64,000 nucleotides of DNA from a virus. Below are positions 4,562 through 59,636 of this stretch, piece by piece. The translations under genes were made by a program, and so were the position numbers. Each line of letters starts with the position of its first letter. Position 1 is the first letter of the stretch. The stretch lies in IMG/VR virus record IMGVR_UViG_3300006175_000009, positions 14,118 through 78,117 of that record. One strand, given 5' to 3'. The notes below the pieces were generated by a model. The model did no database searches. It had not been told where the DNA came from and saw only the letters and a list, made by a program, of their open reading frames with translations.

Positions 4562-4629
4562 TGGACCCACGGAGAATCGAACTCCGCTGGAGTGCCTTGC
4601 AAAGGCTCCCTGTCACCTTGACCAGGCCC
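4562..4629 (-). tRNA. tRNA-Ala(UGC), short (68 nt) with truncated D-arm
   Basis: Acceptor GGGCCTG/TGGGTCC with G3-U70 and A73; anticodon loop TT-TGC-AA; D hairpin only GTCA-AGG-TGAC. Confidence 0.7.
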
Positions 4630-4701
4630 AAAAAGCATCATAACCGGAACAGCTTGTCCACCGGTAGTGCCTCCCCATGAATCGAGGTCTTTGATGCTAC
4701 G

Positions 4702-4784
4702 TACCGAAGGTGGGACTCGAACCCACAATCCCGAAGGCACTAGTTCCTAAGACTAGCGTGTATATCCAGTTCCACCACTCCGGC
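4702..4784 (-). tRNA. tRNA-Leu(UAG)
   Basis: Anticodon arm CTAGT-CTTAGGA-ACTAG, variable arm CC-TTCG-GG, T-arm GTGGG-TTCGAGT-CCCAC. Confidence 0.9.
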
Positions 4785-4800
4785 ATGTTCAGTTGTTGCG

Positions 4801-4895
4801 TGATCCGAGCAGGAATCGAACCTGCGTTACCCAGCCATCCTAAGCCTCAAGCCTAGGCATCAATCCGGGCGGCTTTCCATTTAGCCTATCAGACC
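4801..4895 (-). ncRNA. tRNA-like RNA with a ~23-nt hairpin insertion in the anticodon arm
   Basis: Acceptor GGTCTGA/TCGGATC, D-arm GGCT/AGCC and T-arm GCAGG-TTCGATT-CCTGC are intact; the anticodon stem CCCGG/CTGGG encloses 30 nt including CCTAGG-CTTGAGG-CTTAGG. Confidence 0.65.
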
Positions 4896-4971
4896 AAGGG
4901 AGACGCAGACGCGGGGGGAGGATCTACGTCTCCACTAGAACCAGGTGGGGGGGCCCTGTGTTCGTGGTACT

Positions 4972-5002
4972 AGCTTAGCACAGTCCATAGCCCCCTCGTC
5001 AA
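4972..5002 (-). promoter_or_regulatory. Promoter of the tRNA cluster
   Basis: TTGACG-N19-TAAGCT with a TGn extended -10. Confidence 0.45.
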
Positions 5003-7517: not shown

Positions 7518-7796
7518 CTAGGCGGTACGGCGCTCCCTGTTGACCTCCTGGTCGCGAGCCAGATCCTCATCCGAGATGTGGAAGACGTTGTCGCGGAGGT
7601 ACTTGCCGAACTCCTTGGGGGTCTTGGAGAAGGCATCGAGAGCTTCGATGGGGTTAAGGCTGTAGACCTTAACGATCCGGTTGAACAGTTCACGACCAGG
7701 CATCCGGGTTCCGGAGCGGAGTCGCGAGGCGGTGGTGAAGTGGCACTCGACAGCGGCGGCGAAGCTGTAGAGCGTGACACGTGGATGATTCGTCAT
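7518..7796 (-). CDS. Small probable HTH DNA-binding protein
   Basis: TLYSFAAAVECHFTTASRLRSGTRMPG resembles an XRE-like HTH; leaderless promoter TAGACA-N18-TAGCCT upstream. Confidence 0.5.
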   Translation of the reverse strand: MTNHPRVTLYSFAAAVECHFTTASRLRSGTRMPGRELFNRIVKVYSLNPIEALDAFSKTPKEFGKYLRDNVFHISDEDLARDQEVNRERRTA

Positions 7797-7853
7797 GGTA
7801 GTAGGCTATCAGTTGGGTTGACTGTGTGTCTAGTTTAGGTGTAGAGGATCGTA

Positions 7854-8011
7854 GTTCGTAGACAATTCAACGAGGTTCTGGGTGTGAAAAAGGGGTTCAC
7901 CAGACAGGTTCAGATGGTTCAGGTTGCCCCGAACTCTCCGTTCCGATCTTGGTGAACCCCCAGGTCACCGCCGGTTCATGCCCGGCTAGAACCCCCGAAC
8001 TAGCCCTGAAC
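7854..8011. repeat. GAAC/GTTC motif array 1 (intergenic)
   Basis: About 12 GAAC/GTTC copies in 158 bp (hand count). Confidence 0.7.
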
Positions 8012-8310
8012 TACTTAGCCCCGACTGCCTGCCAGATGAGAGCCGCAGTACCTGCCACACCTGCCAGGATGGTCAAGACAGAATGTGGCATACGGCGCTC
8101 TTCCAGCGAGCGGATTCGAGCCTCGAAATCTGGGAGACGCTCGGCAAGCCGGTGACGCTCTAGATCGCGTAGGCGCGGCTCCAGGTCGGACATGCCCGAC
8201 AGGCGGGCCTCGATCCTCTGAAGCGCGTCATGAATAGTGCGAACCTCCGCATATACCTGGCTCAGGTCGATCTGAACGACCGGCTGCTGAGCGCTTTGCT
8301 GGTTAGTCAC
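8011..8310 (-). CDS. Lysis-cassette membrane protein (coiled coil plus C-terminal TM)
   Basis: Repeated E.RlR.LE heptads and a hydrophobic C-terminus; directly after the endolysin. Confidence 0.6.
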   Translation of the reverse strand: MTNQQSAQQPVVQIDLSQVYAEVRTIHDALQRIEARLSGMSDLEPRLRDLERHRLAERLPDFEARIRSLEERRMPHSVLTILAGVAGTAALIWQAVGAK

Positions 8311-17361: not shown

Positions 17362-18789
17362 CTAGATTCGTACAGCCTTGATGGAGCAAATCTTGTAGCC
17401 CCCCTGGATGAACTGAATGCTGTTCCCGATCACGATGAAAGTCTGATTCGTCAGACCCCAACTGTAGTTGGTTCGGTCGTCCGGGATGAAGCTGGAGGTG
17501 AGCTGGAAGGTCTGTCCTGCCTGAATCCAGCCGAGCCATTCCGGTGAGGTCGAGAAGTTGATGCGCTCCGCCACGAAGGCATATTCCTGACGCTGCCGCA
17601 TGGCACGAGCCTGAGCCATCGGAACCGTGGTCAGAGAGCTGTCGGAGATGTACTCCATGAACACGCCCCCGTTCGGCCCGGTGTACGTGGTCTGCGAGTT
17701 CACGTCGTTCGCCTGAGCGATGATCGGAACCTGGTAGTCGTACCAGAGCTTGATCGTCTGACCACCGGCAGGAGCGCCTGTAGGTGAGTTCAGGAACCAT
17801 GAACCGATGACGTTCTGGGCAATGGACCAGCCGGTTCCGGTGAATGAACCACCAGCCGAAACCAGGGTGACAGGGGTGACCGTGTTGTTCACGGTGAGAA
17901 CCGGAGAGCCCGTTACGGTGTACCGCAGGGGCCAGGACCGCTGGATTCCATCTGTCAGCCAGGTGTCAGTCGGGTTGTTCTGACGGTAGTTCCCGTACTT
18001 GATGATCTGGGTCGCACCCTGAACCAGAATGCGGTTACGAACCGATGCTCCGTCCCATTCGTATCCATAGCTGTTTTCGAAGGAGATGTGTCCTTCGGTC
18101 AGGTTCGGAGTGGATGAACCGACGTACGTTGGGTTTGTCGTGAACGTGACACCAGAAGGCTGGGCAGTGGTCTGGTCATAGAAGTGAAGCTGACGATTCT
18201 GGTCTACATACCATCCGTAAGGAGTGGTCTGAGTGGCGAACTTGGCCAGCTTCACCCACGCGGAAGACAGGGTGGAGTAGTTCAGAACGAAGGACTGAAT
18301 CAGGGGTGCTGGAGTGACGAATCCGGGAGCACCTGGCGTTGACTGGGAAGTCTGAATGGCCGTGATGCCACAGTTGGCCTGCTGAGTGAGAGCAACGATG
18401 ATCTGATCAATCGTCATGCCGATGAAGGTGCCCTGCACGATTGCGTTATCCGCATAGAAGGCGTAGTCTGTGCAGCTCAGGTTCCAGTAGTTGATGCCAT
18501 TGAGCGAGTCCAGTGTGACGTGGGTGATCACGCCCGCGAACATGGAGACGTTGGCGGTGTTATCGAAGAACGAAACCTGAGAGAGAGGCTTGATCACGAA
18601 CGCCGGGGTACCTGTTGTCGAGTAGTCGTCAACGAGCGTGAAGGTGGCGGTCGAGCCCTGTCGTCCGAAGTTCTGGTTGATGGTCGGAGAAGCAGCACCC
18701 GACCATGCCAGATTGTTCGTGTAGGCCGTGGCCGATCCGCCAGGTGGTGTGACTGTGAACGTCAGTGACGGTGTGGGGATCAGACTCAT
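17362..18789 (-). CDS. Tail-tip hub / minor tail protein
   Basis: Immediately after the tape measure gene; F.G.I...LSCTDY, WYVDQNRQLHF, VRNRILVQG. Confidence 0.75.
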   Translation of the reverse strand: MSLIPTPSLTFTVTPPGGSATAYTNNLAWSGAASPTINQNFGRQGSTATFTLVDDYSTTGTPAFVIKPLSQVSFFDNTANVSMFAGVITHVTLDSLNGINYWNLSCTDYAFYADNAIVQGTFIGMTIDQIIVALTQQANCGITAIQTSQSTPGAPGFVTPAPLIQSFVLNYSTLSSAWVKLAKFATQTTPYGWYVDQNRQLHFYDQTTAQPSGVTFTTNPTYVGSSTPNLTEGHISFENSYGYEWDGASVRNRILVQGATQIIKYGNYRQNNPTDTWLTDGIQRSWPLRYTVTGSPVLTVNNTVTPVTLVSAGGSFTGTGWSIAQNVIGSWFLNSPTGAPAGGQTIKLWYDYQVPIIAQANDVNSQTTYTGPNGGVFMEYISDSSLTTVPMAQARAMRQRQEYAFVAERINFSTSPEWLGWIQAGQTFQLTSSFIPDDRTNYSWGLTNQTFIVIGNSIQFIQGGYKICSIKAVRI

Positions 18790-45078: not shown

Positions 45079-45594
45079 CTAGCCGACGATCTCCGCATCC
45101 ACAACCGGAGCTTCAAGGGCTGGCCTCCCGGAACGGGCAGCGATCTCTGCCTTCAGGCGTTCGATCTCGGCATTGACGGTCTGCATCTCGACCACTTCGA
45201 CCTGGGTCTTGATCGCGGCCTCGACACCTGTAAGCTTGGCGATACGCTCCGACACCTTCACGGCAATGTCGATGGCCCTGGTGTTGCCACGCTCGATGCC
45301 CGTCTGGAGCGAGTTGTACAGCGTGTTGAGGCGCTTCAGCTCGATCATGCGAAGGACTTCCTGGGACGTGCGCTCGTTGTGGAGATACTCTTCCTCCAGC
45401 GCATCGTGTACGTCCTTTGCAGCAGCCTCGGCTGTGCCGTAGCCGAGCTGGTAGGAAATCTCCGCGTAGTCATAGCCCTGGATTCGCATCTCCATGGCCT
45501 GGCGTGTCTTGCCCAGGCGCTTGGCTGCCGCCTCCTTGGCTAGAGCGCGGTCCTCGGAGTCGTCGTACTCTTCATCGAATTCAAGCTTTGCCAT
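45079..45594 (-). CDS. Terminase small subunit (HTH)
   Basis: AMEMRIQGYDYAEISYQLGY...IELKRLN.L...ERIAKLTG; typical of actinophage TerS, upstream of terL. Confidence 0.7.
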   Translation of the reverse strand: MAKLEFDEEYDDSEDRALAKEAAAKRLGKTRQAMEMRIQGYDYAEISYQLGYGTAEAAAKDVHDALEEEYLHNERTSQEVLRMIELKRLNTLYNSLQTGIERGNTRAIDIAVKVSERIAKLTGVEAAIKTQVEVVEMQTVNAEIERLKAEIAARSGRPALEAPVVDAEIVG

Positions 45595-47249: not shown

Positions 47250-47530
47250 ACCACGTTACTACCTACTTGTTCCCGTGTCAAGGGTTTCCGGCAGCTATGG
47301 CAGTGCCATGGTTGGATCTAGGGTTTTCGGAGGGTGTTTCCGCAGGTCAGAGCCTGTTTTCTATGGTTACTACGGTACTAGGGAAGAAGTAGTAGACAAA
47401 GAAGTACACAACTAGAAGAAACAATAGGGATTCAACCGTTGCAACCGATGCAGCCGTAGCAACTTGACTCCTACCGCAGTAGCACCTACACTGGAACCTC
47501 ACCCCTGAACTCCTCGAAAGGAACCTGAAC
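47250..47530. other. AT-richer divergent intergenic region; candidate replication origin or genome-end region
   Basis: Strand switch; purine-rich AT tract 47378-47430; three 9-bp tandem repeats at 47434-47460. Confidence 0.45.
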
Positions 47531-47955
47531 CGTGTCGAACCACCGCTTCCTGATCCCACTGGACGAAGATGAACTGGATGAACTCCAGTCGAACGACGAC
47601 GTATGGAGGCCCTGCCCGAACTACCCTGGCTACGACGCCTCATGGAATGGCTGGGTTCGTTCATGGACCGTTCCGAACCACACGGTTCACGGCTACTACT
47701 ACGAGGTTCATCGCGTGAACCCCAAGGTGAACGGCCAGGTTCTGAACCGGCACCGTGGTCAGCTCGTGGCCGACGCCTTCCTGGTTCAGCCCGAACCGCA
47801 GTGGAACCTGACCTGGGAGGACGGAAACAAGCTGAACCATGCAGCCAAGAACCTCTCATGGGAGGACAGGCTGACCAGGGTTCAGCGGGCGAACCAGGCT
47901 GCTAAGCTGAACGGCAACCGTCCGCACAAGAGTCACTGCATCTGGGGACATGAAC
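47494..47955. repeat. GAAC/GTTC motif array 2
   Basis: About 28 copies in 462 bp (hand count), mostly inside the HNH-like CDS. Confidence 0.75.
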
Positions 47956-48230
47956 TGTCAGGGGACCTGGTTAGGATCACGGGTGACGGTTCCAACATGT
48001 GCATCGTCTGTTCACGTGCGCACGCCTCCCGGTACCAGGAGATCAGGACCCTGAAGAAGAAGGGCCTTCCGTATGACCATGTCACCCATGAGTACGTCCT
48101 GAAGCGTAAGGGCGTGTGGGTACCGGAAGACCAGCGACCTGAGGGTGCCCGGAAGAGGCCCCGATCCAACAAGCGAAACCAGAAGCTCAGGGAAGGACGT
48201 ATCACTCATGGCTCGGATGCTGCTTCGTGA
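47532..48230 (+). CDS. NUMOD4-HNH-like protein, probably catalytically degenerate, with a C-terminal Zn finger
   Basis: WRPCPNYPGYDASWNGWVRS (NUMOD4); LVADAFL..WEDGNKLNHAAKNLSW; KSHCIWGHEL...CIVC. Confidence 0.7.
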   Translation: MSNHRFLIPLDEDELDELQSNDDVWRPCPNYPGYDASWNGWVRSWTVPNHTVHGYYYEVHRVNPKVNGQVLNRHRGQLVADAFLVQPEPQWNLTWEDGNKLNHAAKNLSWEDRLTRVQRANQAAKLNGNRPHKSHCIWGHELSGDLVRITGDGSNMCIVCSRAHASRYQEIRTLKKKGLPYDHVTHEYVLKRKGVWVPEDQRPEGARKRPRSNKRNQKLREGRITHGSDAAS

Positions 48231-49068
48231 GGCGAAGCGCCACCACCACTACTGCTGTCCCGGTCACACTGCTAAGGGCTTCGATGCCCAGAACGCGAGG
48301 TCTCGTGAGCGCAATGTATGGCGCAAGGATGCTCGGTACCTTCTCGGCTCCAACCTGCCCAAGCTGCCGGAGGTCTTCGGGGCTGGACTGCGCTGAGATC
48401 GCACGGGCCAAGCAGGCTCAGCGACAGTACGAGAAGCGATCATGGCGGAAGGAGGTTGCACAACAGCGGGAAGAGGTGTAAGCTTGTCATCAGGACAAGG
48501 CAAGGAGGACAAGTGCTCCACTTCATCTACAACACCCTGGCAGTCATCGGGGGCTTCTCGGTGGTGATCTTCCTCTGGCAGTTCATCGTGGCGATCGTCA
48601 CCGTGATCGAGCTGGACCGGAAGGCCACTGCCGACAAGGCGGCCGAGGAGAACGAGATCCGCGAGAACCTGGAGAACGTGCGATGACCATCGACACCTTC
48701 ATGACGGGCTCTCTCGCTGTCATCATGGGCATCCTCGTCCTCGCGTTCGTGTACTGGGGCTGGAAGTTCGCCTCTCTCGCGTACTACGAGGAGAAGCTCA
48801 AGCTGGAGCAGAAGTACAAGGCCGAAGAGCCGAAGGACCAGAAGTGAACGGCCCGCTCATCGGTGTTATGGCCGTGATTGTGGCTGCCTTCGTGGTGGCC
48901 ATGATCTGGGAGGGCATCAAGGAGTACCGCAAGATGAAGGCTTGGGAGCACGACTTCCAGGCCAGACTGGACGCGGTCCGTCGTGAGCACGTAGCAATGC
49001 GTGATCAGATGTACCTCGACCACTTCAACCGCAAGATGAGTGACAGGCTCTCCAAGGAGGAGAAGTGA
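48208..49068 (+). other. Cluster of small hypothetical genes, several single-TM (e.g. 48513-48686, 48683-48847, 48844-49068)
   Basis: Chain of ATGA/GTGA overlaps, RBS AAGGAGG, high GC3. Confidence 0.5.
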
Positions 49069-49475
49069 AGGTCAAGTACGACGAGGTCGGCACCGTGACG
49101 GTCAGTGGCCGTGTCGTGCTGGGTCTGGCTGCTACGGTTGTGGCAGTCGGTGCGATCGGGTACGGTAGCTACGAACTGTTCTGGGACGTGAAGTCCAACA
49201 CCACCGACCGGAACGCCCAGATCGGCCGCCAGAACCTTGCGTTCCAGCAGAGCCGCATGGACGAGATCAGCCGCAAGCTCAACGAGAAGACCGCGCTGGA
49301 GAACGCTCTCGGCTCCGATGCCTCCCCGGAGGACGTGGCCAAGAACAAGGCGCAGGTCACCGCCATCCGCGACCAGATCTGCTCCGACTACGGGGATCTG
49401 ACCACCTCGTACAAGAACACACTGAACCCGGAGCGCTACTCCACTCTGGTACAGCTCTGCGAGGTGCAGAAGTGA
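49065..49475 (+). CDS. Membrane-anchored hypothetical protein
   Basis: N-terminal TM; helical domain with two Cys. Confidence 0.65.
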   Translation: MKVKYDEVGTVTVSGRVVLGLAATVVAVGAIGYGSYELFWDVKSNTTDRNAQIGRQNLAFQQSRMDEISRKLNEKTALENALGSDASPEDVAKNKAQVTAIRDQICSDYGDLTTSYKNTLNPERYSTLVQLCEVQK

Positions 49476-49943
49476 GCGCCATCAAGGAACTGAAGCCGTG
49501 CCACAACAAGAAGTGTGACCGGCACTACGAGGAGGCCAACACCCTCTTCTGCTGCAACAACTGCGCCAAGGCTGACGAATGGATGCTGAACCTGGCAGAC
49601 GTTCTGATCTCCGAGGACCCGCGCGTCGAGAACGTCCGCGAGTTCGAGAACGAGCTTCCCCACAAGCACTCGCCTGAGTGCCTGGCTCCCGCTTCCTGAT
49701 GAGCCGCAAGGACTGGACTGCCCGGCAGCATATCGAGAGAGCTTTCCATGTCTCCTTCATGCTGCCGGAGCAGGCGGCCCAACTGCTTGACGAGTATCGG
49801 GCCGAGGTTCGTGCCGAAGCCTTCCAAGAGGCCGTTGACTTCGTAAGGTCAGGGCCGGTTCCGAAAGAATCCGGGCGTCACTGGCATTGGTACCAGTTCG
49901 CCCTCAACCGAGCCGCAGACAGGCTCAAGGAGAGGTTCCTACA

Positions 49944-50537
49944 GTGAAGAACTACAAGCGCCCCCTGCTCGCCCTTGGTGTCACGGCCGCCATGGCGTTC
50001 AGCTTGACCGCCTGCTTCGGTGACGACTCCAGCCCGAAGGACTCCAACCAGCAGAAGGAGCAGCAGCAAGCCACCAACGGCATCAGCCAGCTCCTGGCCG
50101 CCCAGCCGGTTCACAGCTACTCCTACAGCCAGCTTCGCCAGAACCTTCAGGAGCTGGAGGACGCCCAGGCCAACGGCACGGTCACCACGGCCTTCTTCAT
50201 GCACATGGGCCTGAACGACCCGATCTTCTCCTGCCCCGCCATCGGTGCCCCGATCGCCTCCACCACGGAGCTGACCAACCCGCACCAGACGGAGCGCCAC
50301 GACGGGCAGTACAACGGCGGAAACACCGTTCTGGACCAGATGGACCCCACGGGCGTCTACTCCGGCCAGAGCACCGGTACCTACGTCATGTGCGTGGGTC
50401 AGAACGGCCAGGTCAACCCGGTCTACTGGGAGGGCTCGGTCCTCACCGCCTACGGTCCCGCGCACTGGGACAAGGCCGCGCACAACATGGTCATCGACGG
50501 CCCTTCGGGCTCCAAGTTCTCCGGGGTGAAGAAGTGA
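49944..50537 (+). CDS. Lipoprotein
   Basis: Signal peptide with lipobox SLTA-C; near-complete GC3. Confidence 0.7.
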   Translation: MKNYKRPLLALGVTAAMAFSLTACFGDDSSPKDSNQQKEQQQATNGISQLLAAQPVHSYSYSQLRQNLQELEDAQANGTVTTAFFMHMGLNDPIFSCPAIGAPIASTTELTNPHQTERHDGQYNGGNTVLDQMDPTGVYSGQSTGTYVMCVGQNGQVNPVYWEGSVLTAYGPAHWDKAAHNMVIDGPSGSKFSGVKK

Positions 50538-50707
50538 GCTACCACCCGCACACCACGCACGTCGTGCACACCCACAGCGTCCACGTGGTTCACCACTACC
50601 ACTGGTACCAGCCGCACTACTACTATGGCTCTGGTGGTCACCTGTTCCTCACGATCATGCTGTTCTTCGCGCTGATCGGTGTGGCAGTCTGGCTCGTCAA
50701 GCGGTAG
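50534..50707 (+). CDS. Small His/Tyr-rich membrane protein
   Basis: GTGA overlap; His-rich N-terminus and one TM. Confidence 0.55.
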   Translation: MSYHPHTTHVVHTHSVHVVHHYHWYQPHYYYGSGGHLFLTIMLFFALIGVAVWLVKR

Positions 50708-50713
50708 GAGATC

Positions 50714-50745
50714 GCCCCTCGGGATTCCGGGGGGCTTTCTCGTTT
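50714..50745 (+). terminator. Intrinsic terminator
   Basis: GCCCC...GGGGC hairpin followed by TTTCTCGTTT. Confidence 0.7.
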
Positions 50746-50747
50746 GC

Positions 50748-50777
50748 TTGACAACCTAACGGTGGTTGCACTACCTT
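50748..50777 (+). promoter_or_regulatory. Promoter for a leaderless gene starting at 50784
   Basis: TTGACA-N18-TACCTT, ATG 6 nt downstream. Confidence 0.6.
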
Positions 50778-50783
50778 AGGGGC

Positions 50784-50993
50784 ATGAAGAACGAGGAGAG
50801 CGTCACCGGGTGCCGATACTGCGGATGGGACGGATCGCACGGATTCGCCGCACCGCACAAGTACACCCCACCCGCAGAAGACCAGCTCAAGCAGCGTATG
50901 AAGTTCAGGCGAGTGATTCGTGAACTGAAGAGCTTGCGGAACGAACTGAACCGTGCTAACCTGGATGCACAACGACGGGGGGATCTCCCCTGA
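50784..50993 (+). CDS. Small Cys/His protein
   Basis: GCRYCG...H...H..TPP...LKQRM. Confidence 0.55.
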   Translation: MKNEESVTGCRYCGWDGSHGFAAPHKYTPPAEDQLKQRMKFRRVIRELKSLRNELNRANLDAQRRGDLP

Positions 50994-51017
50994 GGAAACG
51001 TTCTAGGGAGTACCCCC

Positions 51018-51263
51018 ATGGCAGTTCGCAAGAAGAACCCCAACGTGCGCGACTTCATCAAGAAGGTCCGCGCGGGTCTCGGGATGAGCCAGGCGGCCTT
51101 CGCCAAGTACATCGGCACCAATCTGGCCACTCTTCAGCGCTGGGAGTCCGCCACCGCAGCTCCGGGTGGGCTCATGGTGATCCGCCTGTTCGAAGCGGGC
51201 GTGGATATCACGGAGCTGGGCAAGGCATTCGAGGCCGACGCGGCCCTTCCGGCTGCGGCCTAA
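51018..51263 (+). CDS. XRE-family HTH regulator
   Basis: IKKVRAGLGMSQAAFAKYIG...TLQRWES. Confidence 0.85.
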   Translation: MAVRKKNPNVRDFIKKVRAGLGMSQAAFAKYIGTNLATLQRWESATAAPGGLMVIRLFEAGVDITELGKAFEADAALPAAA

Positions 51264-51273
51264 ACCAAGAAAC

Positions 51274-51308
51274 GCGAAAGCCCCGGCGATCCAGACCGGG
51301 GCTTTCGC
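51274..51308. terminator. Bidirectional-type hairpin terminator
   Basis: GCGAAAGCCCCGG / CCGGGGCTTTCGC 13-bp inverted repeat. Confidence 0.65.
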
Positions 51309-51334
51309 TGACAACACAAGGAGGAGTGGTTGCA

Positions 51335-52333
51335 ATGACGAGTATGAACGGTTCCGGTTTCGAAAGCAAGCTCAACGAGATCAAGGGACACAAGACCGCC
51401 AAGTCCGAATTCAACCGGGACCGTGCGGCGAAGGTGATCATCTGGGGTGCCACCGATCTGGTCGCGCTCTTCGCGCTGGCGCTGGGAGCCTGGTCCAACC
51501 AGACCGTGGCCAAGTGGCTCGGGTTCCCGGACCTGGCTGGCTGGGGCTTCTCCATCGTGATCGACGGTGTGTGGCTCGTGTCCATCGCCCTGATTCAGCT
51601 CCACCGGGAACAGCCCTGGAAGGCCGTACAGGCTTACCAGGCGGTCTACTACATGGTGGCCCTGAGCGCACTGACCAACTTCGGACACGGACTGATCCGA
51701 TTCGGTGTGAGCTGGCACGGCGCAGCGGCTGGTCTGGCCTTCGCGGTCCTGCCGATCTCGCTGAAGTGGCTCATCTCGGCTTCGACCAACAACCGGATGG
51801 GAACCCTCCTGAAGGCCCCGAACGCAAAGTCGCGGCTGAAGGATGCCGGGATGGTTCGGGCGGAACTGGAACTGAACGAGGCTCTCCAGCCGCTCATGAA
51901 CCTGGTGAACCAGTCGAGTTCCGATGAGGAGTCGCAGGTTCGGGCCCTTCAGAACCCGATCGAGAACGAGACCCCGGTTCAGGTTCGCCTGGATCGAGTC
52001 GAGGAGGAGGACCCGTTCGAGATTCCGAGCTGGGTGAACACTCCTCGCGCTGCGATCGAACCTCCGAAGCCTGTGGTTCCTGCTCAGCCGAACCTGGTTC
52101 CGGTGGAGAGCCCGAAGGTTCCGACCCAGGTTCAGATCAACTCCCGGCAGGAGCGGGTGAACGACCTGGCGCAGAGGATCGGCCAGAACGGCGGCCAGCT
52201 CAACTCCGTGACCTTCGCCCAGATCTCCGAGTGGTACGGGATCGACGCCAGCAAGAAGAGCACCCTCTCGGTCCTCCGCAAGGACGCACACCAGCGCTAC
52301 CTGGACAAGGCGACGCAGGGCCCGTACATGTGA
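51335..52333 (+). CDS. DUF2637/Spd-like membrane protein with a probable C-terminal DNA-binding domain
   Basis: Four TM segments (A.WLG...AGWGFSIVIDG, LSALTNFGHG, AVLP); Pro-rich linker; C-terminal VTFAQISEWYGI...STLSVLRK HTH-like segment. Confidence 0.65.
   Translation: MTSMNGSGFESKLNEIKGHKTAKSEFNRDRAAKVIIWGATDLVALFALALGAWSNQTVAKWLGFPDLAGWGFSIVIDGVWLVSIALIQLHREQPWKAVQAYQAVYYMVALSALTNFGHGLIRFGVSWHGAAAGLAFAVLPISLKWLISASTNNRMGTLLKAPNAKSRLKDAGMVRAELELNEALQPLMNLVNQSSSDEESQVRALQNPIENETPVQVRLDRVEEEDPFEIPSWVNTPRAAIEPPKPVVPAQPNLVPVESPKVPTQVQINSRQERVNDLAQRIGQNGGQLNSVTFAQISEWYGIDASKKSTLSVLRKDAHQRYLDKATQGPYM
51854..52189. repeat. GAAC/GTTC motif array 3, inside the DUF2637-like gene
   Basis: About 22 copies in 336 bp (hand count); many produced by GTT-C and GAA-C codon choices. 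Confidence 0.75.
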
Positions 52334-52342
52334 TCGAGACAG

Positions 52343-52388
52343 GAAGCCCCTCATTTCACTTCGGTGAAGTGGGGGGCTTCTTTGTTTT
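52343..52388 (+). terminator. Intrinsic terminator
   Basis: GAAGCCCC.CA.TTCAC-TTCG-GTGAAGTGGGGGGCTTC followed by TTTGTTTT. Confidence 0.8.
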
Positions 52389-52416
52389 GACTCTGCGTCA
52401 ATTTGCCCTCTAGGAT
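52387..52416 (+). promoter_or_regulatory. Promoter of the traB-like gene, with a palindrome over the -35
   Basis: TTGACT-N18-TAGGAT; TTGAC-N5-GTCAA. Confidence 0.6.
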
Positions 52417-52444
52417 TGTTAGTCCATCAAGGAGGCTCTTTGAA

Positions 52445-54289
52445 ATGCAGACGCACTGGCGGAACACCCTAACCGGAAGCATCGCAGTGGCTACAGCGGC
52501 CACAGTCACAGGACTTGTCACCCATGCCGAGTACGGCCAGCAGGCTCAGCTTGTCGAAACTCTGGTCGCTGGACTGGGGGGGACGGCTGCCCTGAAGCTG
52601 CTCTTCGACCAGAAGGACGGGCACGGCTTCAAGGAGGGCCTTGGCACCTCTCTGGGCTGGCTGGCCACCTTCGCCGGAGACGCTGCCATTGCGGGCTGGG
52701 AGGGTGGTGGACAGCAGTCGTTCTGGGCTTGGCTCGGTGGAGCTGCTGCTTCCGTGGCTCTTGGGTTCTCGTGGGCTGAGCATCGCCGCCACGACCGTCT
52801 AGAGCGTCACCACCGGACCGTGAGCATCAGGACCATGGAGACCAATTCCAAGATCGCCCTTATGCGTGAGGAGATGGCTGGACTGAAGCTCCTCCGGGAG
52901 CAGGAGAAGATGATGCCAAGTCCGGCTGAACAGCCGCCGGTATTCACCCGGAACATCGCGGGGAACATTCAGCACGCCATCTGGGAACTCAATGCGGGGA
53001 AGGTCATCATTCCGAGCGCTCATGTCACGGAGAACAAGCGTGGCTGGGAGGCCCGTCTGACACTTCCCAATGGCTACGGCCTGAAGAAGCTTGAGCGGGA
53101 TTGTGACGGCATCGCCCAGTCACTCGATCTGCTGGAGGTCCCGGAGGCCGTCTCTGGCGCTTCCAAGGGCCTGGCTGTCCTCAAGTACCGGGAGCCCGTT
53201 GAACTGCCGTCAGAGGTGCGCTGGAGCCCCGTCTCGCCCGGCAAGTGGTCCGACCCCGTGCTGCTCGGCATTGATGAGGACGGGAACACGGTCACCCTGG
53301 ACCTGAATGTTCACGCTCTGGTGGCTGGTGCTACCGGATTCGGGAAGTCCACCCTGATCAACACCATCATTCTCCAGCTTGCAGAGCGTGAGCATGTCAA
53401 GGTTACGGGCATCGACATGAAGCCCTTCTCTCCGGAATTCACTCCGCTCAAGCCGATCCTGAATGGCCTGATCTCCGATCTGGAAACCGCTCACTCGGTG
53501 CTCGACACCATCCGGGACGAGCTGTACATCCGTGGCGAGATCATGCAGAAGAACGGGTGGAAGAAGTGGCAGCCCTCTGCCGAAAAGCCCATCCGCTACT
53601 ACTTCTTCGATGAGTACGCGGAGCTGATCCGGCAGGACAAGGAACGCATCAAGGAACTCAAGGCAGCCAAGGGTCAGGCGAAGATGGATCAGGAGGCTTC
53701 CGACTTCAAGACGATTCAGTCCAAGGTCGAATCCATCCTGGCCATGTCGCGCGCCTACGGGCTGTACCTGGTGCTGGCCACTCAGCAGCCTTCAGCGGCT
53801 CTCTGGGGTGATGACACAGGCGCTCGTGGCAACTGCCCAATCCGCATCTGCTTCACCATGTCAGAGGCCACCCACGACCGTTTCGTGCTACCTGCTGGTT
53901 GGTCCACCGAGATCCTGGACGGTAAGCGCGGCCGGTTCGTCATGAAGAGCCCCATGCACATGACACAGGACCCGTACCTGGCGTTCATCGTGGATGACGA
54001 CCAGCTTGCCGACGAAGTGTTCCGCATTTCCATGAAGGTCCCTGAGCGCCCTCTGAGTGACTCGGAGGACACGATGGACACTCGGGTTGACTGGCTCACC
54101 AAGAGCCAGGGACAGAGCCCGCGAGAGCGTGTCATGAGCGTCCTCATGGCTGGTCCGGCCACCAAGCGGGAGATCGCCGACAAGACCAACCTGGACCCCG
54201 TTGGCTCCCAGCTCAAGCACGCGCTGAACGGCCTCCGCAAGGAAGAGGTCATCCAGGTGGACCCTGACAACGTGTGGTCCCTGACGTAA
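52445..54289 (+). CDS. TraB-like FtsK/SpoIIIE DNA translocase (N-terminal TMs, ATPase, C-terminal winged HTH)
   Basis: RBS AAGGAGG; VLLGIDEDG, HALVAGATGFGKST, GIDMK, FFDEYAEL, SRAYGLYLVLATQQP; C-terminal ERVMSVL..GPATKREIADKT...LNGLRKEEVI...W. Confidence 0.8.
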   Translation: MQTHWRNTLTGSIAVATAATVTGLVTHAEYGQQAQLVETLVAGLGGTAALKLLFDQKDGHGFKEGLGTSLGWLATFAGDAAIAGWEGGGQQSFWAWLGGAAASVALGFSWAEHRRHDRLERHHRTVSIRTMETNSKIALMREEMAGLKLLREQEKMMPSPAEQPPVFTRNIAGNIQHAIWELNAGKVIIPSAHVTENKRGWEARLTLPNGYGLKKLERDCDGIAQSLDLLEVPEAVSGASKGLAVLKYREPVELPSEVRWSPVSPGKWSDPVLLGIDEDGNTVTLDLNVHALVAGATGFGKSTLINTIILQLAEREHVKVTGIDMKPFSPEFTPLKPILNGLISDLETAHSVLDTIRDELYIRGEIMQKNGWKKWQPSAEKPIRYYFFDEYAELIRQDKERIKELKAAKGQAKMDQEASDFKTIQSKVESILAMSRAYGLYLVLATQQPSAALWGDDTGARGNCPIRICFTMSEATHDRFVLPAGWSTEILDGKRGRFVMKSPMHMTQDPYLAFIVDDDQLADEVFRISMKVPERPLSDSEDTMDTRVDWLTKSQGQSPRERVMSVLMAGPATKREIADKTNLDPVGSQLKHALNGLRKEEVIQVDPDNVWSLT

Positions 54290-55669: not shown

Positions 55670-56206
55670 CTACACCCTCCCGAGCAGTTGTGCAACCTCC
55701 TTGAGGTACAGCCTGCGGACCTGGTTCCAGCGGGCGTCGGCAAGGGCGTTGTGGGCCCCTGAAGGCTGTTCAGGCATCGCCGGGTACCCGAGACGTTCGC
55801 ACTCCTGCATTATGTCGTTGGTGCGCATGGGGAAGCCCGCAGGAAGGTCGATCATCCGCCCGAAGAACTGGCACACCGCGACGTGATCGTAGGACGCGAA
55901 GTAGGCCCACAGAGAAGGGTTGGTCGTGTCCATGACGAAGCGTCGAATGTCAGCGGCGATCTCGTCCTTGGTCTTGATCTTGTCGAAGTCCGGATGCGTC
56001 TCGTCCCAGGGGTCTTCCCTGTCGAACCTCACGGGCAAGCTGTTCATGACGTTCTGCATGAGCCATGCGTGCTTCCGGATGCGCGGCAGTGGCATGTCAC
56101 GGTTGACAGCGTAGTACTCCTTGCCATCTGCCCTGACCATGCCAATCGAGATGGGCTCGATGGTGACGCCGTCCTCAAGGAACTCAAGGTCGTAGTCGAT
56201 TTCCAC
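55670..56206 (-). CDS. DEDD 3'-5' exoribonuclease, Rv2179c/RNase AS-like
   Basis: YDLEFLEDG...ISIGMV, W...NV, LWAYFASYDHV, HNALADARW. Confidence 0.85.
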   Translation of the reverse strand: MEIDYDLEFLEDGVTIEPISIGMVRADGKEYYAVNRDMPLPRIRKHAWLMQNVMNSLPVRFDREDPWDETHPDFDKIKTKDEIAADIRRFVMDTTNPSLWAYFASYDHVAVCQFFGRMIDLPAGFPMRTNDIMQECERLGYPAMPEQPSGAHNALADARWNQVRRLYLKEVAQLLGRV

Positions 56207-56258
56207 GATTCTCCAATCACCGATGGCCCCGCCTCACAAGGAGACGGGGCCGTTGGGG

Positions 56259-57359
56259 TTACTGCATTTCGGTGGGCTCTTCACCCAGGACGTTCTTGCC
56301 ACGGGTCAGGTAGTCGGCCGAGACCGACTTGACCAGCGCCAGACCCCTCAGGAGAGGAGAAGTGCGAGGCGGGGCGGCCTGGACCACGACACCCTCACGG
56401 ATGTGCAGCTCGCGGCCGGAGAACTGCTCCATACCGTCCGTCAGCTCGGCCACCTTCTCCTTGCTGTATGGACCGACGTAGAGCACCGGCACGCACGGAA
56501 CCTCGCGGGGAAGCATGGCGTGCGGGCTGACCCACTGCTCTCCGGTCTGGTACTTCAGCAGCATGGCGTAGGCCGCGAAACCGACCTTGCCCGTACGGCC
56601 GTTGGCACCGTAGTGGAGATCCTGCACACCCTCACCGAACACCTCACCGAACAGCGAGATGCTGACAGCGTGCGGGAAGCTCAGCGCCAGAGTGGCCAGA
56701 GCCTCCTTCAGGCTGTACTCATGGGCCGCCCGCCAGTAGAGGTTGTGCTCGTCCTCCTTGAGCGCGTAGCCGTCCTTGGAGATGCCCTTCGAGCTGACCT
56801 GGAGAGTGTCCGTGGCCGTCTCGTAGGTGCTCACGAAGCAGGTTCCGTGGAGCTTCTCCGTGATCTCCACCTGCTCGCCCTCGGTGAAGACCTTGCCATA
56901 CTTCTTGACCGACTCGACCTCGAACATCGGGACCAGGTCAGGCGCGGCCTCGATGGTACCGCTCATCGCGATGGCCACCTCGGGCACGAACTTGACGATC
57001 CCCAGAGCCTCGGCCCAGGTGTCACCAGGGCGAGCGCCGTTCTCGGTGGCGATCCGAGTTGCCACGGGCTCCGGGATGATCAGACCCTGCGACAGCTCAC
57101 CACGGAGCTTGATGGCCTTGACCACGTTCTTGGTCTTGCCGCCGAGACGACCCTTCAGCCCCAGCTCGTCCAGGATCTTGTCGGGGACGATACCGCCCTC
57201 GGGGACGTAGACAACCTCGTCGTAGTCCTTGTAGGCGTTCAGCCCGGTGACCACCTGGAAACCGTCCTCGGAGCCCACGTTGGCCAGGCTGAGCGAGTCC
57301 GCGTTCGGGTGCTTGCGGCAGTTGTGGAGCTTCTCCACCGTGACTTCGTACTGAGCCAT
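56259..57359 (-). CDS. RNA ligase, DRB0094 (Rnl5)-type with an N-terminal OB-like domain
   Basis: HPNADSL, KLRGELSQGL, TEKLHGT, FGEVFGEGVQ, REGVVV, KSVSADYL. Confidence 0.9.
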   Translation of the reverse strand: MAQYEVTVEKLHNCRKHPNADSLSLANVGSEDGFQVVTGLNAYKDYDEVVYVPEGGIVPDKILDELGLKGRLGGKTKNVVKAIKLRGELSQGLIIPEPVATRIATENGARPGDTWAEALGIVKFVPEVAIAMSGTIEAAPDLVPMFEVESVKKYGKVFTEGEQVEITEKLHGTCFVSTYETATDTLQVSSKGISKDGYALKEDEHNLYWRAAHEYSLKEALATLALSFPHAVSISLFGEVFGEGVQDLHYGANGRTGKVGFAAYAMLLKYQTGEQWVSPHAMLPREVPCVPVLYVGPYSKEKVAELTDGMEQFSGRELHIREGVVVQAAPPRTSPLLRGLALVKSVSADYLTRGKNVLGEEPTEMQ

Positions 57360-57489
57360 GTGCTTTTCCTCCCTGTCGTTGTGCTACGAGCTTACCAGCT
57401 CCTAGCCTCCAGCGCAAACAAAACTTGCCTAGAAAGCCAAGTTGCCAGTTACAGGCAAGTGGCCATTCTAGGCAAGTTGTGCCGATCTG

Positions 57490-58410
57490 CTAGAAGTTGC
57501 CAGGTGCCACCTGCCAGGTCGTGAGACCCATCAGGCGATACACGTCAACCACCATGTTCCGGTCGTCCAGGGCCAGCTTGACGTCGTAGTTCGGGGCGAT
57601 GTGCTCCCAGAACATCTCAGGCTTGACGATGCCGTCCGAACGAGTGTCATGCGGCGGGCGCATGAACAGATCGTCGTAGAAGACCTTGTCCCGCTTGAGC
57701 GTCGTCACGGTGTGGTCCCGGTAGAGACCGTCCCGTCCAGAGGCCAGCACGATGGCGTAACCGGCCGCTGCAAACAGCTTGATGGCCTCGTGCGTCATCG
57801 GCTTGATGGTGTCCTTGTAGACCGCGTAGAAGGCGTACGGAGACCGGTCGCCCATCTCGTACAGCGTTCCGTCAAGGTCCACCAGGATGGCCTTGGGCTT
57901 CCCCGGAGTCCCCTCGTACTTACGGACCGAGATCTTGAGGTCGTTCATCCACTCGTTGGTGAGGGTGAACCCCTTGCGCTCCTGGTCCAGAAGAGTCCGG
58001 TTCATCTTCTTGATCACGTCAGCCCCGACCTGAGCTGGGCCTTCACGGAACGAGTCGTTCCAGATGCAGCTCTCGGCAGAGACGTATGTGAAGTCCCGAA
58101 CGTAGAAGGTGACGTCCTCCAGCGCAAGGGCCTTCTTGTACTTCTTGAGCCAGTCAAGGCGGATGTGGCAGTTGTCGATCACCACGTTGTGACCCGCCCT
58201 GACCATGGTGACCAGGCTGGTGAGCATGAGATCGAAGGCTACCGCCTCCTTCTCCTTGGTCCACAGGTCCGATCCGTTCTCGAAGCCCAGCATGGCCCTG
58301 TAGGAGTCCATGTTGAGCCGGTAGTGGTTCGGGCTGTCGGCGACGAAACGAGAGGCCCACGTGGACTTACCGCTTCCTGGCAGGCCCCTCGTCACGTATA
58401 CGTCTGTCAC
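57490..58410 (-). CDS. Polynucleotide 5'-kinase / 3'-phosphatase (T4 PseT-like)
   Basis: RGLPGSGKST, VIDN; HAD motifs DLDGTL, SGR, LFMR, DDR. Confidence 0.93.
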   Translation of the reverse strand: MTDVYVTRGLPGSGKSTWASRFVADSPNHYRLNMDSYRAMLGFENGSDLWTKEKEAVAFDLMLTSLVTMVRAGHNVVIDNCHIRLDWLKKYKKALALEDVTFYVRDFTYVSAESCIWNDSFREGPAQVGADVIKKMNRTLLDQERKGFTLTNEWMNDLKISVRKYEGTPGKPKAILVDLDGTLYEMGDRSPYAFYAVYKDTIKPMTHEAIKLFAAAGYAIVLASGRDGLYRDHTVTTLKRDKVFYDDLFMRPPHDTRSDGIVKPEMFWEHIAPNYDVKLALDDRNMVVDVYRLMGLTTWQVAPGNF

Positions 58411-59546
58411 TCGTCCTCGTCCTTCCGGAAACGAACCTTGCCGTAGGGCTCCACCTGCTTCCAGAGCCACTTGTCCAGTCCGGCAGTGTTCTTGTCGTAC
58501 AACATGAACAGTACCTTACTGAACTCGCTCCCCGCAACCGCCAGCGCGAAATCCTTACGGGCGCTGACCTTCTCGTAGCCCACGCCAAGCATGGCCTTGT
58601 TGTACTCGCGGGTGAGGCGAGCCTTCAGACGGGAGCGCTGGCCCTTGAGCTTCTTCTCCACGCCCTTGGCCCACTCCATCAGCTCATCCGGTGCACCCTT
58701 GTCCATCAGGTCGTTCAGGGTGCCACCGTTGGACAGGAGACGCCAGATGCCCTTCTCCGTGGTCTCGGTGAACAGGCCGTGGAGCTGGAGGTACTTGGCG
58801 CTCTTGCACTTGGCCATGGTGCCGTCCGGCCACTGGAGAACCAGGCCCTCGAAGTCCGTGCCCGCGTCCGTAGACTGCTTGATCCACGCGGACAGGGTCT
58901 TGGCGTCCTTGCCGTAGACGGGCCACTGCTTGACGACAGAGCCGATTGGGGCCCAGCCCTCCGCCAGGGTCTCCAGGCGCTGGTAGGCACCCGTGTAGAG
59001 GCTCCTCGCACCCAGCAGGATCAGGTCGGTACGGCCCTTGTAGTCCACCACGATCCGGAACTGCGGAGCGATGAACTCGGCAAGGTACGTGAGCGAACGG
59101 TCCAGCATCTTGGTGTTCTTGGTGTCCAGGTACTTCTCGGCCGCGATGGAAACGTCGGATGCGAACGATCCCTTGGACGCCACACGCCACTTGCCGTCGT
59201 ACCAGTAGACGATGGCCAGAGAGCCATCCTCCTTGGTCGTGGCGACCGGAGTGGTGTTCGGAAGAGGCTGAACGTGCTTCGGCCGGTCCTCACCCTGCGC
59301 CTCGTGGAGGTCCACCAGGAAGGTCTTCGGGAACGGCAGGGCCACGATCTCGCCAATGTCGTCCACGATCAGGCCGCGAGTCTGCTTGGTGACGTCGGTC
59401 CAGTGGGAGTCGAACACACAGGCGTTCTCGTAGACGTACAGGGCCAGCTCATACTGGTCGTGGTACTTCTCGCGGACGTACCCGGAACGGATCTCGTTGT
59501 CCAGCTCCTTGGTGTCCATCAGGTCGTGGATCGTCAGTCGAAGCAT
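58407..59546 (-). CDS. RNA ligase 1 (T4 RnlA-like)
   Basis: RGLI...PFPK.F, KEDGSL, SKGSFAS, RIVVDY, EGLV, K.KS..YL.LH. Confidence 0.9.
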   Translation of the reverse strand: MLRLTIHDLMDTKELDNEIRSGYVREKYHDQYELALYVYENACVFDSHWTDVTKQTRGLIVDDIGEIVALPFPKTFLVDLHEAQGEDRPKHVQPLPNTTPVATTKEDGSLAIVYWYDGKWRVASKGSFASDVSIAAEKYLDTKNTKMLDRSLTYLAEFIAPQFRIVVDYKGRTDLILLGARSLYTGAYQRLETLAEGWAPIGSVVKQWPVYGKDAKTLSAWIKQSTDAGTDFEGLVLQWPDGTMAKCKSAKYLQLHGLFTETTEKGIWRLLSNGGTLNDLMDKGAPDELMEWAKGVEKKLKGQRSRLKARLTREYNKAMLGVGYEKVSARKDFALAVAGSEFSKVLFMLYDKNTAGLDKWLWKQVEPYGKVRFRKDEDE

Positions 59547-59636
59547 CGCTTCCTCCTTGGTTGATGCCACCATAGTAGCAGAGAGCTTTCCACCCTGTCA
59601 ACGAAGAAGGCCCCTGGTTTCCCAGAGGCCCTCCCG

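What the first reader, a model, noticed from the sequence alone, without database searches (positions are those of the whole stretch)
51854..52189. GAAC/GTTC array written into the coding sequence of the DUF2637-like gene
Seen: about 22 GAAC/GTTC in 336 bp, versus about 3 expected from base composition. They arise from otherwise uncommon synonymous choices in frame (GTT CGG, GAA CTG GAA CTG AAC, GTT CAG GTT CGC, GTT CCG), while the TM-coding part of the same gene uses mostly GTC/GTG. This points to selection on the DNA. Known: TraB binds clustered clt repeats near its gene, and some Spd proteins bind sites within their own locus. Inference: this is a cis-acting binding array (clt-like or centromere-like) for the C-terminal HTH of this membrane protein or for the TraB wHTH, tethering phage DNA to the membrane.
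Basis: partly seen in the sequence, partly recalled or inferred. Interest (0 to 1): 0.8.

Follow-up and report, generated by a model that had tools for sequence, protein, structure and literature searches.

The report
Translocase-linked DNA motif array in phage
A soil phage has written about 22 copies of a 4-5 base DNA word into the coding sequence of a membrane-protein gene next to its FtsK-type DNA pump; four related phages carry the same kind of array at the same spot, three of them with a different word, which points to a docking site for the pump like those of Streptomyces conjugative plasmids.

Summary
There are 22 GAAC/GTTC (12 GAACC/GGTTC) in 51854-52189. Base composition predicts 2.4, the window average is 4.9, and nulls that keep the protein and the codon context give about 10 (0 of 3000-5000 simulations reach 22).

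It is not unique in this 78-kb phage. A fourth lies in the helicase gene outside the window.

The main result is comparative. In four related uncultured phages, the membrane-protein gene just upstream of the FtsK-like gene carries a dense array on both strands and in several reading frames. Each lineage has its own 5-mer: GAACC, GGACA, GGACC or CGAGC (z 6.4-11). No genome has an array of another lineage's word. Homologues on contigs that show no FtsK gene have no array.

Best reading (about 0.45): a clt-like docking array for the phage's TraB/FtsK-like translocase. Binding is untested, and the membrane protein's own C-terminal domain remains a rival reader. LexA boxes, RNA structure, foreign composition and KOPS-like polarity were tested and rejected. 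The "DUF2637" label has no Pfam support. I class it as a new variant of a known kind.

The parts
51854..52189 (.). Array R1: 22 GAAC/GTTC (12 GAACC/GGTTC) on both strands, in the linker-coding part of the membrane-protein gene
   Evidence: In-array consensus is about GGTTC(A)(G): G at -1 in 64% of in-array sites against 29% outside.
51335..52333 (+). Gene for a 332-aa membrane protein: 3-4 hydrophobic segments, a variable Pro/Val/Gln/Glu-rich linker, and a conserved C-terminal domain of about 55 aa (…LNSVTFAQISEWYG…KSTLSVLRKDAHQ…)
   Evidence: ORF. Hydrophobic segments at 34-52, 71-89 and 129-147. Homologue alignment A1. phrog_10376 E 2e-6. No Pfam family.
52445..54289 (+). FtsK/SpoIIIE-like translocase gene (614 aa from ATG 52445; the ORF opens at 52403), with a C-terminal winged-helix-like domain
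   Evidence: PF01580 E 1e-13. phrog_1358 E 1e-38. PDB matches to TcpA and FtsK motor domains. The best plasmid matches are Streptomyces FtsK/SpoIIIE-domain proteins. The C-terminal 60-70 aa align with winged-helix models at TM 0.71-0.76.
51018..51263 (+). Xre-type HTH gene heading the module; it is conserved upstream of the G003 module
   Evidence: PF01381 E 1.7e-8. The G003 counterpart was read.
52341..52416 (+). Terminator-like hairpin (52341-52382), then a promoter-like site (52387-52416), between the two genes
   Evidence: consensus scans only.
47494..47930 (.). Array R2: 27 GAAC/GTTC. It starts right after a promoter-like site (47464-47492) in non-coding DNA and runs through the first 133 codons of an HNH endonuclease gene (47532-48230)
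   Evidence: HNH PHROGs.
7854..8011 (.). Array R4: 12 GAAC/GTTC in non-coding DNA. It is arranged as a long imperfect dyad, and the minus-strand RNA folds at -85.4 kcal/mol (z -7.0)
17609..17908 (.). Weaker candidate array inside the gene 17362-18789 (-): 14 sites against 5.8 expected, z 4.1

Best explanation
The array is a cis-acting cluster of protein-docking sites. It belongs to the phage's three-gene DNA-translocation module: an Xre regulator, a polytopic membrane protein and an FtsK/TraB-like ATPase with a C-terminal winged helix.

The elementary site is a 5-6 bp word, about GGTTC(A). It is placed at irregular spacing and in either orientation, about every 15 bp over 340 bp. It sits in the one part of the upstream gene, an inter-domain linker, that tolerates recoding.

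The most likely reader is the winged helix of the FtsK-like protein. Six flexible winged helices on a hexamer could engage several nearby words. The pump would then load on phage DNA rather than host DNA, as TraB loads at clt on Streptomyces plasmids. The further arrays elsewhere in the genome would be additional loading sites.

Shown here: DNA-level selection, conserved position with lineage-specific words, and co-occurrence with the FtsK-like gene.
For: 1. The excess is at the DNA level. It exceeds protein- and context-preserving nulls. GAAC or GAACC is among the two most enriched k-mers in all three coding arrays. R2 and R4 extend into or lie wholly in non-coding DNA.
2. Non-motif codons in the arrays follow normal phage codon usage.
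3. The position is conserved across five lineages whose FtsK-like proteins share only 17-38% identity. The linker of the membrane-protein gene directly upstream of the FtsK-like gene carries an array in each:
   - G003: 34 GAAC/GTTC in 200 codons (z 7.3), plus 12 sites across the spacer and the adjoining gene ends.
   - G002: GGACA, z 11.1.
   - G001: GGACC, z 6.6 and 9.0. The FtsK-like identity of the downstream gene comes from phrog_31069, E 1e-93.
   - G006: CGAGC, z 6.8.
4. Each genome has arrays of its own word only. The module array ranks among the three strongest local 5-mer clusters in each genome scanned.
5. The words occur in 2-3 reading frames and on both strands. In G006, by my reading of the sequence, the same 11-bp unit is read as EQL in one frame and as SSS in another.
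6. Only 10 of 28 (G000) and 38 (G003) site-bearing codons align between the two genomes. The array is therefore maintained through turnover of individual sites.
7. Homologues at about 49% identity on contigs without an FtsK gene have no array of any k-mer.
8. The recognition helix of the winged helix is alike in the two GAACC phages (SQLKHALNGL and STIKNALWKL) and different in the others.
9. Precedent in the literature: clt loci lie beside or overlap tra genes and hold plasmid-specific 5-9 bp repeats bound by the TraB winged helix (PMC4447253, PMC3583192).
Against: - No binding data exist.
- Known clt repeats are direct repeats of 7-9 bp in a single locus. Here the word is 5-6 bp, on both strands, and forms at least four arrays 4-50 kb apart.
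- Co-variation of the winged helix with the word is confounded by relatedness: G000 and G003 are each other's closest relatives.
- The membrane protein's C-terminal domain co-varies as well.
- The winged-helix fold rests on an Atlas model of a short stretch. My own single-sequence model was poor (pLDDT 52.6).
- Cultured phages with other FtsK-gene contexts show no array (Omega, Gilgamesh) or only a weak one (Hiyaa).
- In G000 the arrays in the HNH and helicase genes are as dense as R1.
Confidence: 0.45

Rival explanations
1. The reader is the membrane protein's own cytoplasmic C-terminal three-helix domain. The protein would be inserted into the membrane while its gene is still being transcribed and translated. 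It would then bind the words in its own gene and hold phage DNA at the membrane beside the pump.
For: The domain is the best-conserved part of the family, with invariant K308, T310, S312, L314, R315, K316 and H319. Its putative recognition helix is nearly identical in the two GAACC phages and different or absent in the GGACA, GGACC and CGAGC phages. The array lies in this protein's own gene in all five lineages.
Against: Homologues L004 and L005 carry the same LRKDAH helix but no array in the linker or anywhere on their 2.6-4.5 kb contigs. G002's protein lacks this domain yet has the densest array. SpdB2, the plasmid analogue, binds DNA non-specifically (PMC4447253).
Confidence: 0.2
2. The arrays are spreading or roadblock-type operator arrays for a regulator, either the Xre protein of the module or another small phage protein. 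They would keep a toxic translocase and other genes silent until needed, as in the kil-kor control of traB by TraR.
For: An Xre gene heads the module here and in G003. R2 starts right after a promoter-like site. R1 lies 200-250 bp upstream of the promoter-like site of the FtsK-like gene. Unregulated traB is toxic (PMC4447253).
Against: 20-40 sites over 300-650 bp, mostly inside genes and far from promoters (as in the helicase mid-gene array), is not how HTH_3 operators look. No fixed dyad spacing was found. The Xre recognition regions of G000 and G003 differ although their word is the same, by my reading.
Confidence: 0.1
3. The arrays serve replication, packaging or recombination, for example secondary origins, pac-like sites or recombination hot spots. 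They would sit next to the translocase gene only by shared ancestry.
For: Short words written into coding DNA are known for lambda ori in gene O and P1 pac in pacA (my own knowledge). A homologue (P0015) and a close relative in a public run both change sequence abruptly near the start of the array, which suggests recombination there.
Against: The relatives already have separate, duplicated iteron-rich control regions with a different word: GGAACAC or GAAGACC. The position next to the FtsK-like gene holds across lineages that share only 17-38% identity while the word itself changes, and shared ancestry alone does not predict that.
Confidence: 0.1
4. No protein reads the array. It would be a by-product of repeat expansion in a low-complexity linker, of RNA or DNA secondary structure, or of local mutational bias.
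For: The linkers are low-complexity and variable in length. R4 and the G003 spacer form strong hairpins built from the word.
Against: The coding arrays have no unusual RNA folding energy: z -1.7, -1.7 and -0.45. The words occur in several frames and on both strands. Arrays also lie in globular-protein genes, the HNH and helicase genes. Five lineages keep the array while its sites turn over.
Confidence: 0.12

Closest known systems
[quoted passage not shown] Sources: PMC4447253, PMC3583192
   Same: It is a cluster of many short repeats beside, or running into, the gene of an FtsK-like translocase that ends in a winged helix. The word is specific to the element and changes between relatives. A polytopic membrane protein is encoded next door, as SpdB2 is on plasmids.
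   Different: It lies in a virion-forming phage. It is written almost wholly inside a coding sequence. The word is 5-6 bp on both strands with irregular spacing, rather than direct repeats. There are 20-40 copies rather than 3-9, and several arrays per genome. Neither binding nor a cis requirement has been tested.
KOPS / SRS guide sequences of FtsK / SpoIIIE
   Same: These are short words read by the C-terminal winged helix (gamma domain) of an FtsK-family pump.
   Different: KOPS are 8-mers, dispersed genome-wide, over-represented and strand-polar. Here the genome-wide counts equal the order-2 Markov expectation and show no polarity switch; the excess is purely local.
P1 pac site in pacA and lambda ori iterons in gene O (my own knowledge)
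   Same: These are functional arrays of short DNA words embedded in a protein-coding sequence. In lambda they lie in an inter-domain linker of a gene of the same functional module.
   Different: Those serve packaging or replication and are single loci. Here the neighbour is a translocase, and the relatives have separate iteron regions with another word.
Omega (pSM19035) heptad operators and ParG/ParR-type iteron centromeres (my own knowledge)
   Same: They are dense arrays of a short word that work in either orientation.
   Different: Those units are contiguous at a fixed 7-11 bp period and lie in promoters. Here the spacing is irregular; a period near 10.7 bp is only weakly suggested (p 0.0035 within 9.5-12 bp, 0.19 over all periods).

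Membership tests
clt locus of TraB-type conjugation | Lies beside or overlaps the translocase gene | tested here: met
   R1 ends 256 bp before ATG 52445. In G003 the array runs through the spacer into the first codons of the FtsK-like gene. In G006 the two genes overlap.
clt locus of TraB-type conjugation | Multiple copies of a short (5-9 bp) repeat | tested here: met
   22 copies of GAAC/GTTC, 12 of them GAACC/GGTTC.
clt locus of TraB-type conjugation | Repeats are direct (one orientation) | tested here: not met
   11 GTTC and 11 GAAC on the + strand. No preferred pair geometry.
clt locus of TraB-type conjugation | The word is element-specific and differs between related elements | tested here: met
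   GAACC (G000, G003), GGACA (G002), GGACC (G001), CGAGC (G006). No cross-motif arrays.
clt locus of TraB-type conjugation | Bound by the cognate translocase and required in cis for transfer | not testable with these tools
   Needs EMSA or ChIP and a transfer or spread assay.
TraB / FtsK-SpoIIIE translocase (neighbouring gene) | FtsK_SpoIIIE P-loop motor domain | tested here: met
   PF01580 E 1e-13, above the cut-off. PDB matches to TcpA 6o1z and FtsK 2ius.
TraB / FtsK-SpoIIIE translocase (neighbouring gene) | [quoted passage not shown] | tested here: inconclusive
   In the Atlas model, residues 545-614 align with DprA-WH, IclR, HTH_5 and TrmB models at TM 0.71-0.76, but this is a short stretch. 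My own AF2 model had pLDDT 52.6, with an H-H-H-strand pattern.
TraB / FtsK-SpoIIIE translocase (neighbouring gene) | N-terminal transmembrane anchor | tested here: inconclusive
   Only one segment (36-54) passes a Kyte-Doolittle threshold of 1.5.
DUF2637 (PF10935) | Match to the Pfam model | tested here: not met
   No hit at E <= 0.01 for the protein. No hit at E <= 0.1 for any of 14 homologues. Only the G001 counterpart hits, and weakly (E 0.0028, below the cut-off).
SpdB2 spread protein | Sequence relation to plasmid SpdB2; four TM helices | tested here: not met
   No tblastn match in 72,556 plasmids. 3-4 hydrophobic segments give an architectural resemblance only.
LexA (Cheo/SOS) box of Gram-positives and Actinobacteria | GAAC-N4-GTTC dyad | tested here: not met
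   Only 2 such sites in the 78-kb genome, neither in an array. No N4 pairs among the in-array spacings.
KOPS/SRS-type guide words | Genome-wide over-representation with strand polarity | tested here: not met
   Observed against order-2 Markov expectation: GAACC 209 vs 218, GGTTC 157 vs 181. No polarity switch.

The most novel reading that the evidence does not exclude
These phages run a complete TraB-clt-type double-stranded DNA transfer system of their own. The arrays would be loading sites that let the membrane-protein/FtsK-like pump move unpackaged phage genomes across septa, either between compartments of a filamentous actinobacterial host or into spores. That would give virion-independent cell-to-cell spread. 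The docking sites would be hidden inside coding sequences and would evolve together with the pump's winged helix.
Probability: 0.2. Interest if true: 0.9.

Novelty: new variant of a known kind. Interest (0 to 1): 0.7.

Why it matters
FtsK-like translocase genes are annotated in many actinobacteriophages, but I found no paper that gives their function. One paper on plasmid spreading suggested that phage SpdB2 homologues might help phage DNA spread (PMC4447253).

A position-conserved, lineage-specific word array next to the pump gene supplies the missing cis element. It makes the idea directly testable by binding assays, synonymous recoding and swapping winged helices between lineages.

It is also a clear example of a regulatory or structural DNA code overprinted on a protein linker, strong enough to shape the amino-acid sequence (VQVR, ELEL, VRT, EQL/SSS). 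Annotators and codon-usage studies should be aware of that.

Tried and rejected
- **LexA/Cheo boxes** (a lead from earlier notes): only two GAAC-N4-GTTC sites in the genome, none in an array.
- **RNA structure:** R1, R2 and R3 fold no better than shuffles (z -1.7, -1.7, -0.45). Only the non-coding R4 is a strong hairpin.
- **Foreign or mosaic composition:** non-motif codons in the arrays are typical of the phage.
- **Composite sites or fixed spacing:** none found. A period near 10.7 bp is only suggestive.
- **KOPS-like polarity:** none.
- **Relatives through single proteins:** megablast and tblastn of the region against cultured phages found nothing. Single-protein scans of IMG/VR found nothing. 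Alignment A1 found nothing in IMG/VR or in prokaryote genomes. Relatives were finally reached through a helicase alignment.
The DNA of the 87-41% identity homologues P0002-P0015 could not be examined.
- **Read laying** listed only 40 of 493 differences, none inside an array. The one useful item is a loose end of a roughly 93% identical relative that diverges after 51910 yet shows GGTTC, GAACC and GGTTC within 30 nt.
- **C-terminal domain of the translocase:** the sequence search found only the protein itself, and single-sequence AF2 gave pLDDT 52.6.
- **Cultured phages:** Omega and Gilgamesh have no array near their FtsK-like genes. Hiyaa has only a weak GGTCCGG/CCGGA cluster in a Gly/Ser-rich region.
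- **Control-region iterons of relatives** (GGAACAC, GAAGACC) looked like the same phenomenon at first, but they are a separate, duplicated intergenic element.

Full report
**1. Where the window lies**

The window is bases 14118-78117 of a 78,117-bp IMG/VR phage contig (59.9% GC, CheckV completeness 77%). Almost all genes are on the minus strand. A 7-kb plus-strand block (47532-54289) holds:
- an HNH endonuclease gene;
- several small genes;
- an Xre-type HTH gene (51018-51263);
- a 332-aa membrane-protein gene (51335-52333);
- an FtsK/SpoIIIE-like gene (52403/52445-54289).

The nearest cultured relatives by helicase are Streptomyces phages of the Hiyaa group, at 40% identity. Public runs that hold the sequence are mostly rhizosphere and soil metagenomes.

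**2. The observation**

Region 51854-52189 holds 22 GAAC/GTTC, 11 in each orientation. 12 of them are GAACC/GGTTC. Base composition predicts 2.4 and the window averages 4.9 per 336 bp.

I tested the excess against nulls that keep the protein sequence:

| Null | Mean count | Simulations reaching 22 |
|---|---|---|
| Synonymous permutation within the region | 12.3 | 0 of 5000 |
| Resampling from phage codon usage | 7.8 | 0 of 5000 |
| Codon-order shuffle | 9.7 | 0 of 5000 |
| Codon choice conditioned on the next 1-3 bases | 9.4-10.4 (z 5.5-6.0) | 0 of 3000 |

The last null was needed because this genome has a strong codon-context rule. T-ending codons are favoured before C and avoided before A, and GTT is the commonest Val codon before C (46%).

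Among 4-mers, GAAC is the most enriched word of the region under the null; among 5-mers GAACC ranks second. The flanking parts of the gene show no excess. In-array sites prefer G at -1 (64% against 29% outside) and A at +4, so the word is about GGTTC(A).

**3. It is one of several arrays**

| Array | Place | Content |
|---|---|---|
| R2 | window 47494-47930 | 27 sites; starts in non-coding DNA right after a promoter-like site, then covers the first 133 codons of the HNH gene |
| R3 | genome 8300-9000, outside the window (locus L001) | 30 sites, 20 of them GAACC, mid-gene in a DinG-type helicase gene; z 6-8 |
| R4 | window 7854-8011 | 12 sites in non-coding DNA, forming a long dyad |
| Weaker candidate | window 17609-17908 | z 4.1 |

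Genome-wide, GAAC and GAACC occur as often as an order-2 Markov chain predicts, with no strand polarity. The excess is purely local.

**4. Explanations excluded**

- *LexA boxes:* GAAC-N4-GTTC occurs twice in the genome and never in an array.
- *RNA structure:* the three coding arrays fold no better than shuffles.
- *Foreign DNA:* codons outside the motif use normal phage codon preferences.
- *Fixed composite sites:* there is no dominant spacing or pair geometry. A period near 10.7 bp is only weakly suggested.

**5. Comparative evidence**

Homologues of the 332-aa protein exist at 87-41% identity. Two metagenome loci at about 49% identity (L004, L005) have the same conserved C-terminal domain. 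No FtsK gene lies downstream on L004, and neither has an array of any k-mer in the linker.

Through an alignment of helicase homologues I reached several related IMG/VR phages. I fetched four of them whole.

| Genome | Module | Array in the membrane-protein gene |
|---|---|---|
| G003 (97 kb) | Xre, 337-aa membrane protein (C-terminal part 42% identical), FtsK-like (38%) | 34 GAAC/GTTC in 200 codons against 13.1 expected (z 7.3); 12 more sites across the spacer and the adjoining gene ends, including the perfect palindrome GGGGTTCAGGTTCCG-GTT-CGGAACCTGAACCCC |
| G002 (85 kb) | membrane protein, FtsK-like | 22 GGACA/TGTCC against 4.7 expected (z 11.1) |
| G001 (89 kb) | membrane protein (same PHROG 10376 as ours), a 449-aa protein, then an FtsK-like protein (phrog_31069, E 1e-93) | GGACC/GGTCC arrays in the first two genes (24 and 35 sites; z 6.6 and 9.0) |
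| G006 (57 kb) | 298-aa membrane protein overlapping the FtsK-like gene | 20 CGAGC/GCTCG against 6.1 expected (z 6.8); by my reading of the sequence the same 11-bp unit CGAGCAGCTCG is read as EQL in one frame and SSS in another |

Further points:
- Every genome has arrays of its own word only.
- The module array ranks among the three strongest local 5-mer clusters of each genome scanned.
- The words occur in two or three reading frames and on both strands.
- Between G000 and G003, only 10 site-bearing codons are aligned, out of 28 and 38. The array is kept while its sites turn over.
- G003 and G002 also have secondary arrays elsewhere. One of G003's lies in a gene whose G000 homologue shows a mild excess.
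- A roughly 93% identical relative in a public run diverges within the linker. Its divergent stretch still shows three copies of the word in 30 nt.

**6. Which protein reads it?**

There are two candidates.

*(a) The C-terminal domain of the FtsK-like protein.* It looks like a winged helix: Atlas model matches to DprA-WH, IclR, HTH_5 and TrmB at TM 0.71-0.76. My own model was too poor to use. Its putative recognition helix is similar in the two GAACC phages and different in the GGACA and CGAGC phages.

*(b) The membrane protein's own C-terminal three-helix domain.* It is likewise shared by the two GAACC phages and different or absent in the others.

Both correlations are confounded by relatedness. 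Two facts favour (a). G002 lacks the conserved domain of (b) yet has the densest array. L004 and L005 have that domain but no array on contigs that show no FtsK gene. The plasmid precedent also points to (a): the TraB winged helix reads the clt repeats, whereas SpdB2 binds DNA non-specifically (PMC4447253, PMC3583192).

**7. Comparison with what is known**

The closest known system is the TraB-clt pair of Streptomyces conjugative plasmids.

Shared features:
- a short-repeat cluster beside or overlapping the translocase gene;
- an element-specific word;
- an FtsK-type motor that ends in a winged helix;
- a polytopic membrane partner.

Differences:
- a phage context;
- a coding-sequence location;
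- words of 5-6 bp on both strands at irregular spacing;
- 20-40 copies;
- several arrays per genome.

On the proteins:
- The motor domain passes Pfam's threshold, and its best plasmid matches are Streptomyces FtsK-domain proteins.
- The membrane protein has no Pfam DUF2637 match.
- The membrane protein has no plasmid homologue, so it is SpdB2-like in architecture only.
- Phages with other FtsK-gene contexts (Omega, Gilgamesh) have no such array, and Hiyaa has only a weak cluster. The feature therefore belongs to this module type, not to all phage FtsK genes.

**8. Verdict**

The array is a selected DNA feature tied to the membrane-protein/FtsK-like module and conserved in position across five lineages, which between them use four different words. 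The clt-like docking-site reading is the best supported (about 0.45 with the FtsK-like winged helix as reader, about 0.2 with the membrane protein's domain). Binding and function are untested. I class it as a new variant of a known kind, with interest about 0.7.

Noticed in passing
window 47250-47490 and L001 11990-12290 (genome 11990-12290): Two inverted copies of an intergenic control region of about 300 bp. They share blocks such as GGTCAGAG and TATGGTTACTA, plus CTACGG/CCGTAG repeats. Relatives have the homologous region twice, 43-51 kb apart, packed with lineage-specific 7-mers (GGAACAC in G001 and G002, GAAGACC in G003), a TATATA stretch and a GTCAGAGG block. These are candidate origins or early-promoter control regions, distinct from the GAAC arrays.
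   Followed up: partly
window 7840-8015: The non-coding GAAC/GTTC array is also a long imperfect hairpin. The minus-strand RNA folds at -85.4 kcal/mol (z -7.0) and the plus strand at -66.5 (z -2.9). The inner stem GGGGGUUCACC…GGUGAACCCC is followed by UUUUU, so it may double as a terminator between the lysis genes and the gene at 7518-7796.
   Followed up: partly
whole genome: There is a strong codon-context rule. In all four-fold codon families, T-ending codons make up 29-46% before C but only 3-15% before A. Any synonymous-site test on this phage needs a context-aware null.
   Followed up: yes
proteins P0015 and P0003; window about 51910: Homologue P0015 has a diverged TM half (41% identity overall) but a linker and C-terminus almost identical to the P0002 type. 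A roughly 93% identical relative in a public run becomes unalignable after 51910. The array region looks like a recombination boundary within the gene.
   Followed up: no
window 55670-59573: Cluster of RNA-repair-type genes: an Rv2179c-like 3'-5' exoribonuclease (55670-56206), an RNA ligase with a tRNA-binding OB fold (56259-57359) and a T4 Rnl1-type ligase (58407-59573). An RNase E-like PHROG lies at 45079-45594.
   Followed up: no
It sits immediately downstream of control-region copy 1, just as array R2 sits downstream of copy 2.
   Followed up: no
window 47520-47534 and G003 spacer (L070 1336-1356, minus strand): Nearly the same translation-start context is used by the HNH gene here (GAAAGGAACCTGAACC-GTG) and by the FtsK-like gene of G003 (GAAAGGACCTGAACC-ATG).
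   Followed up: no
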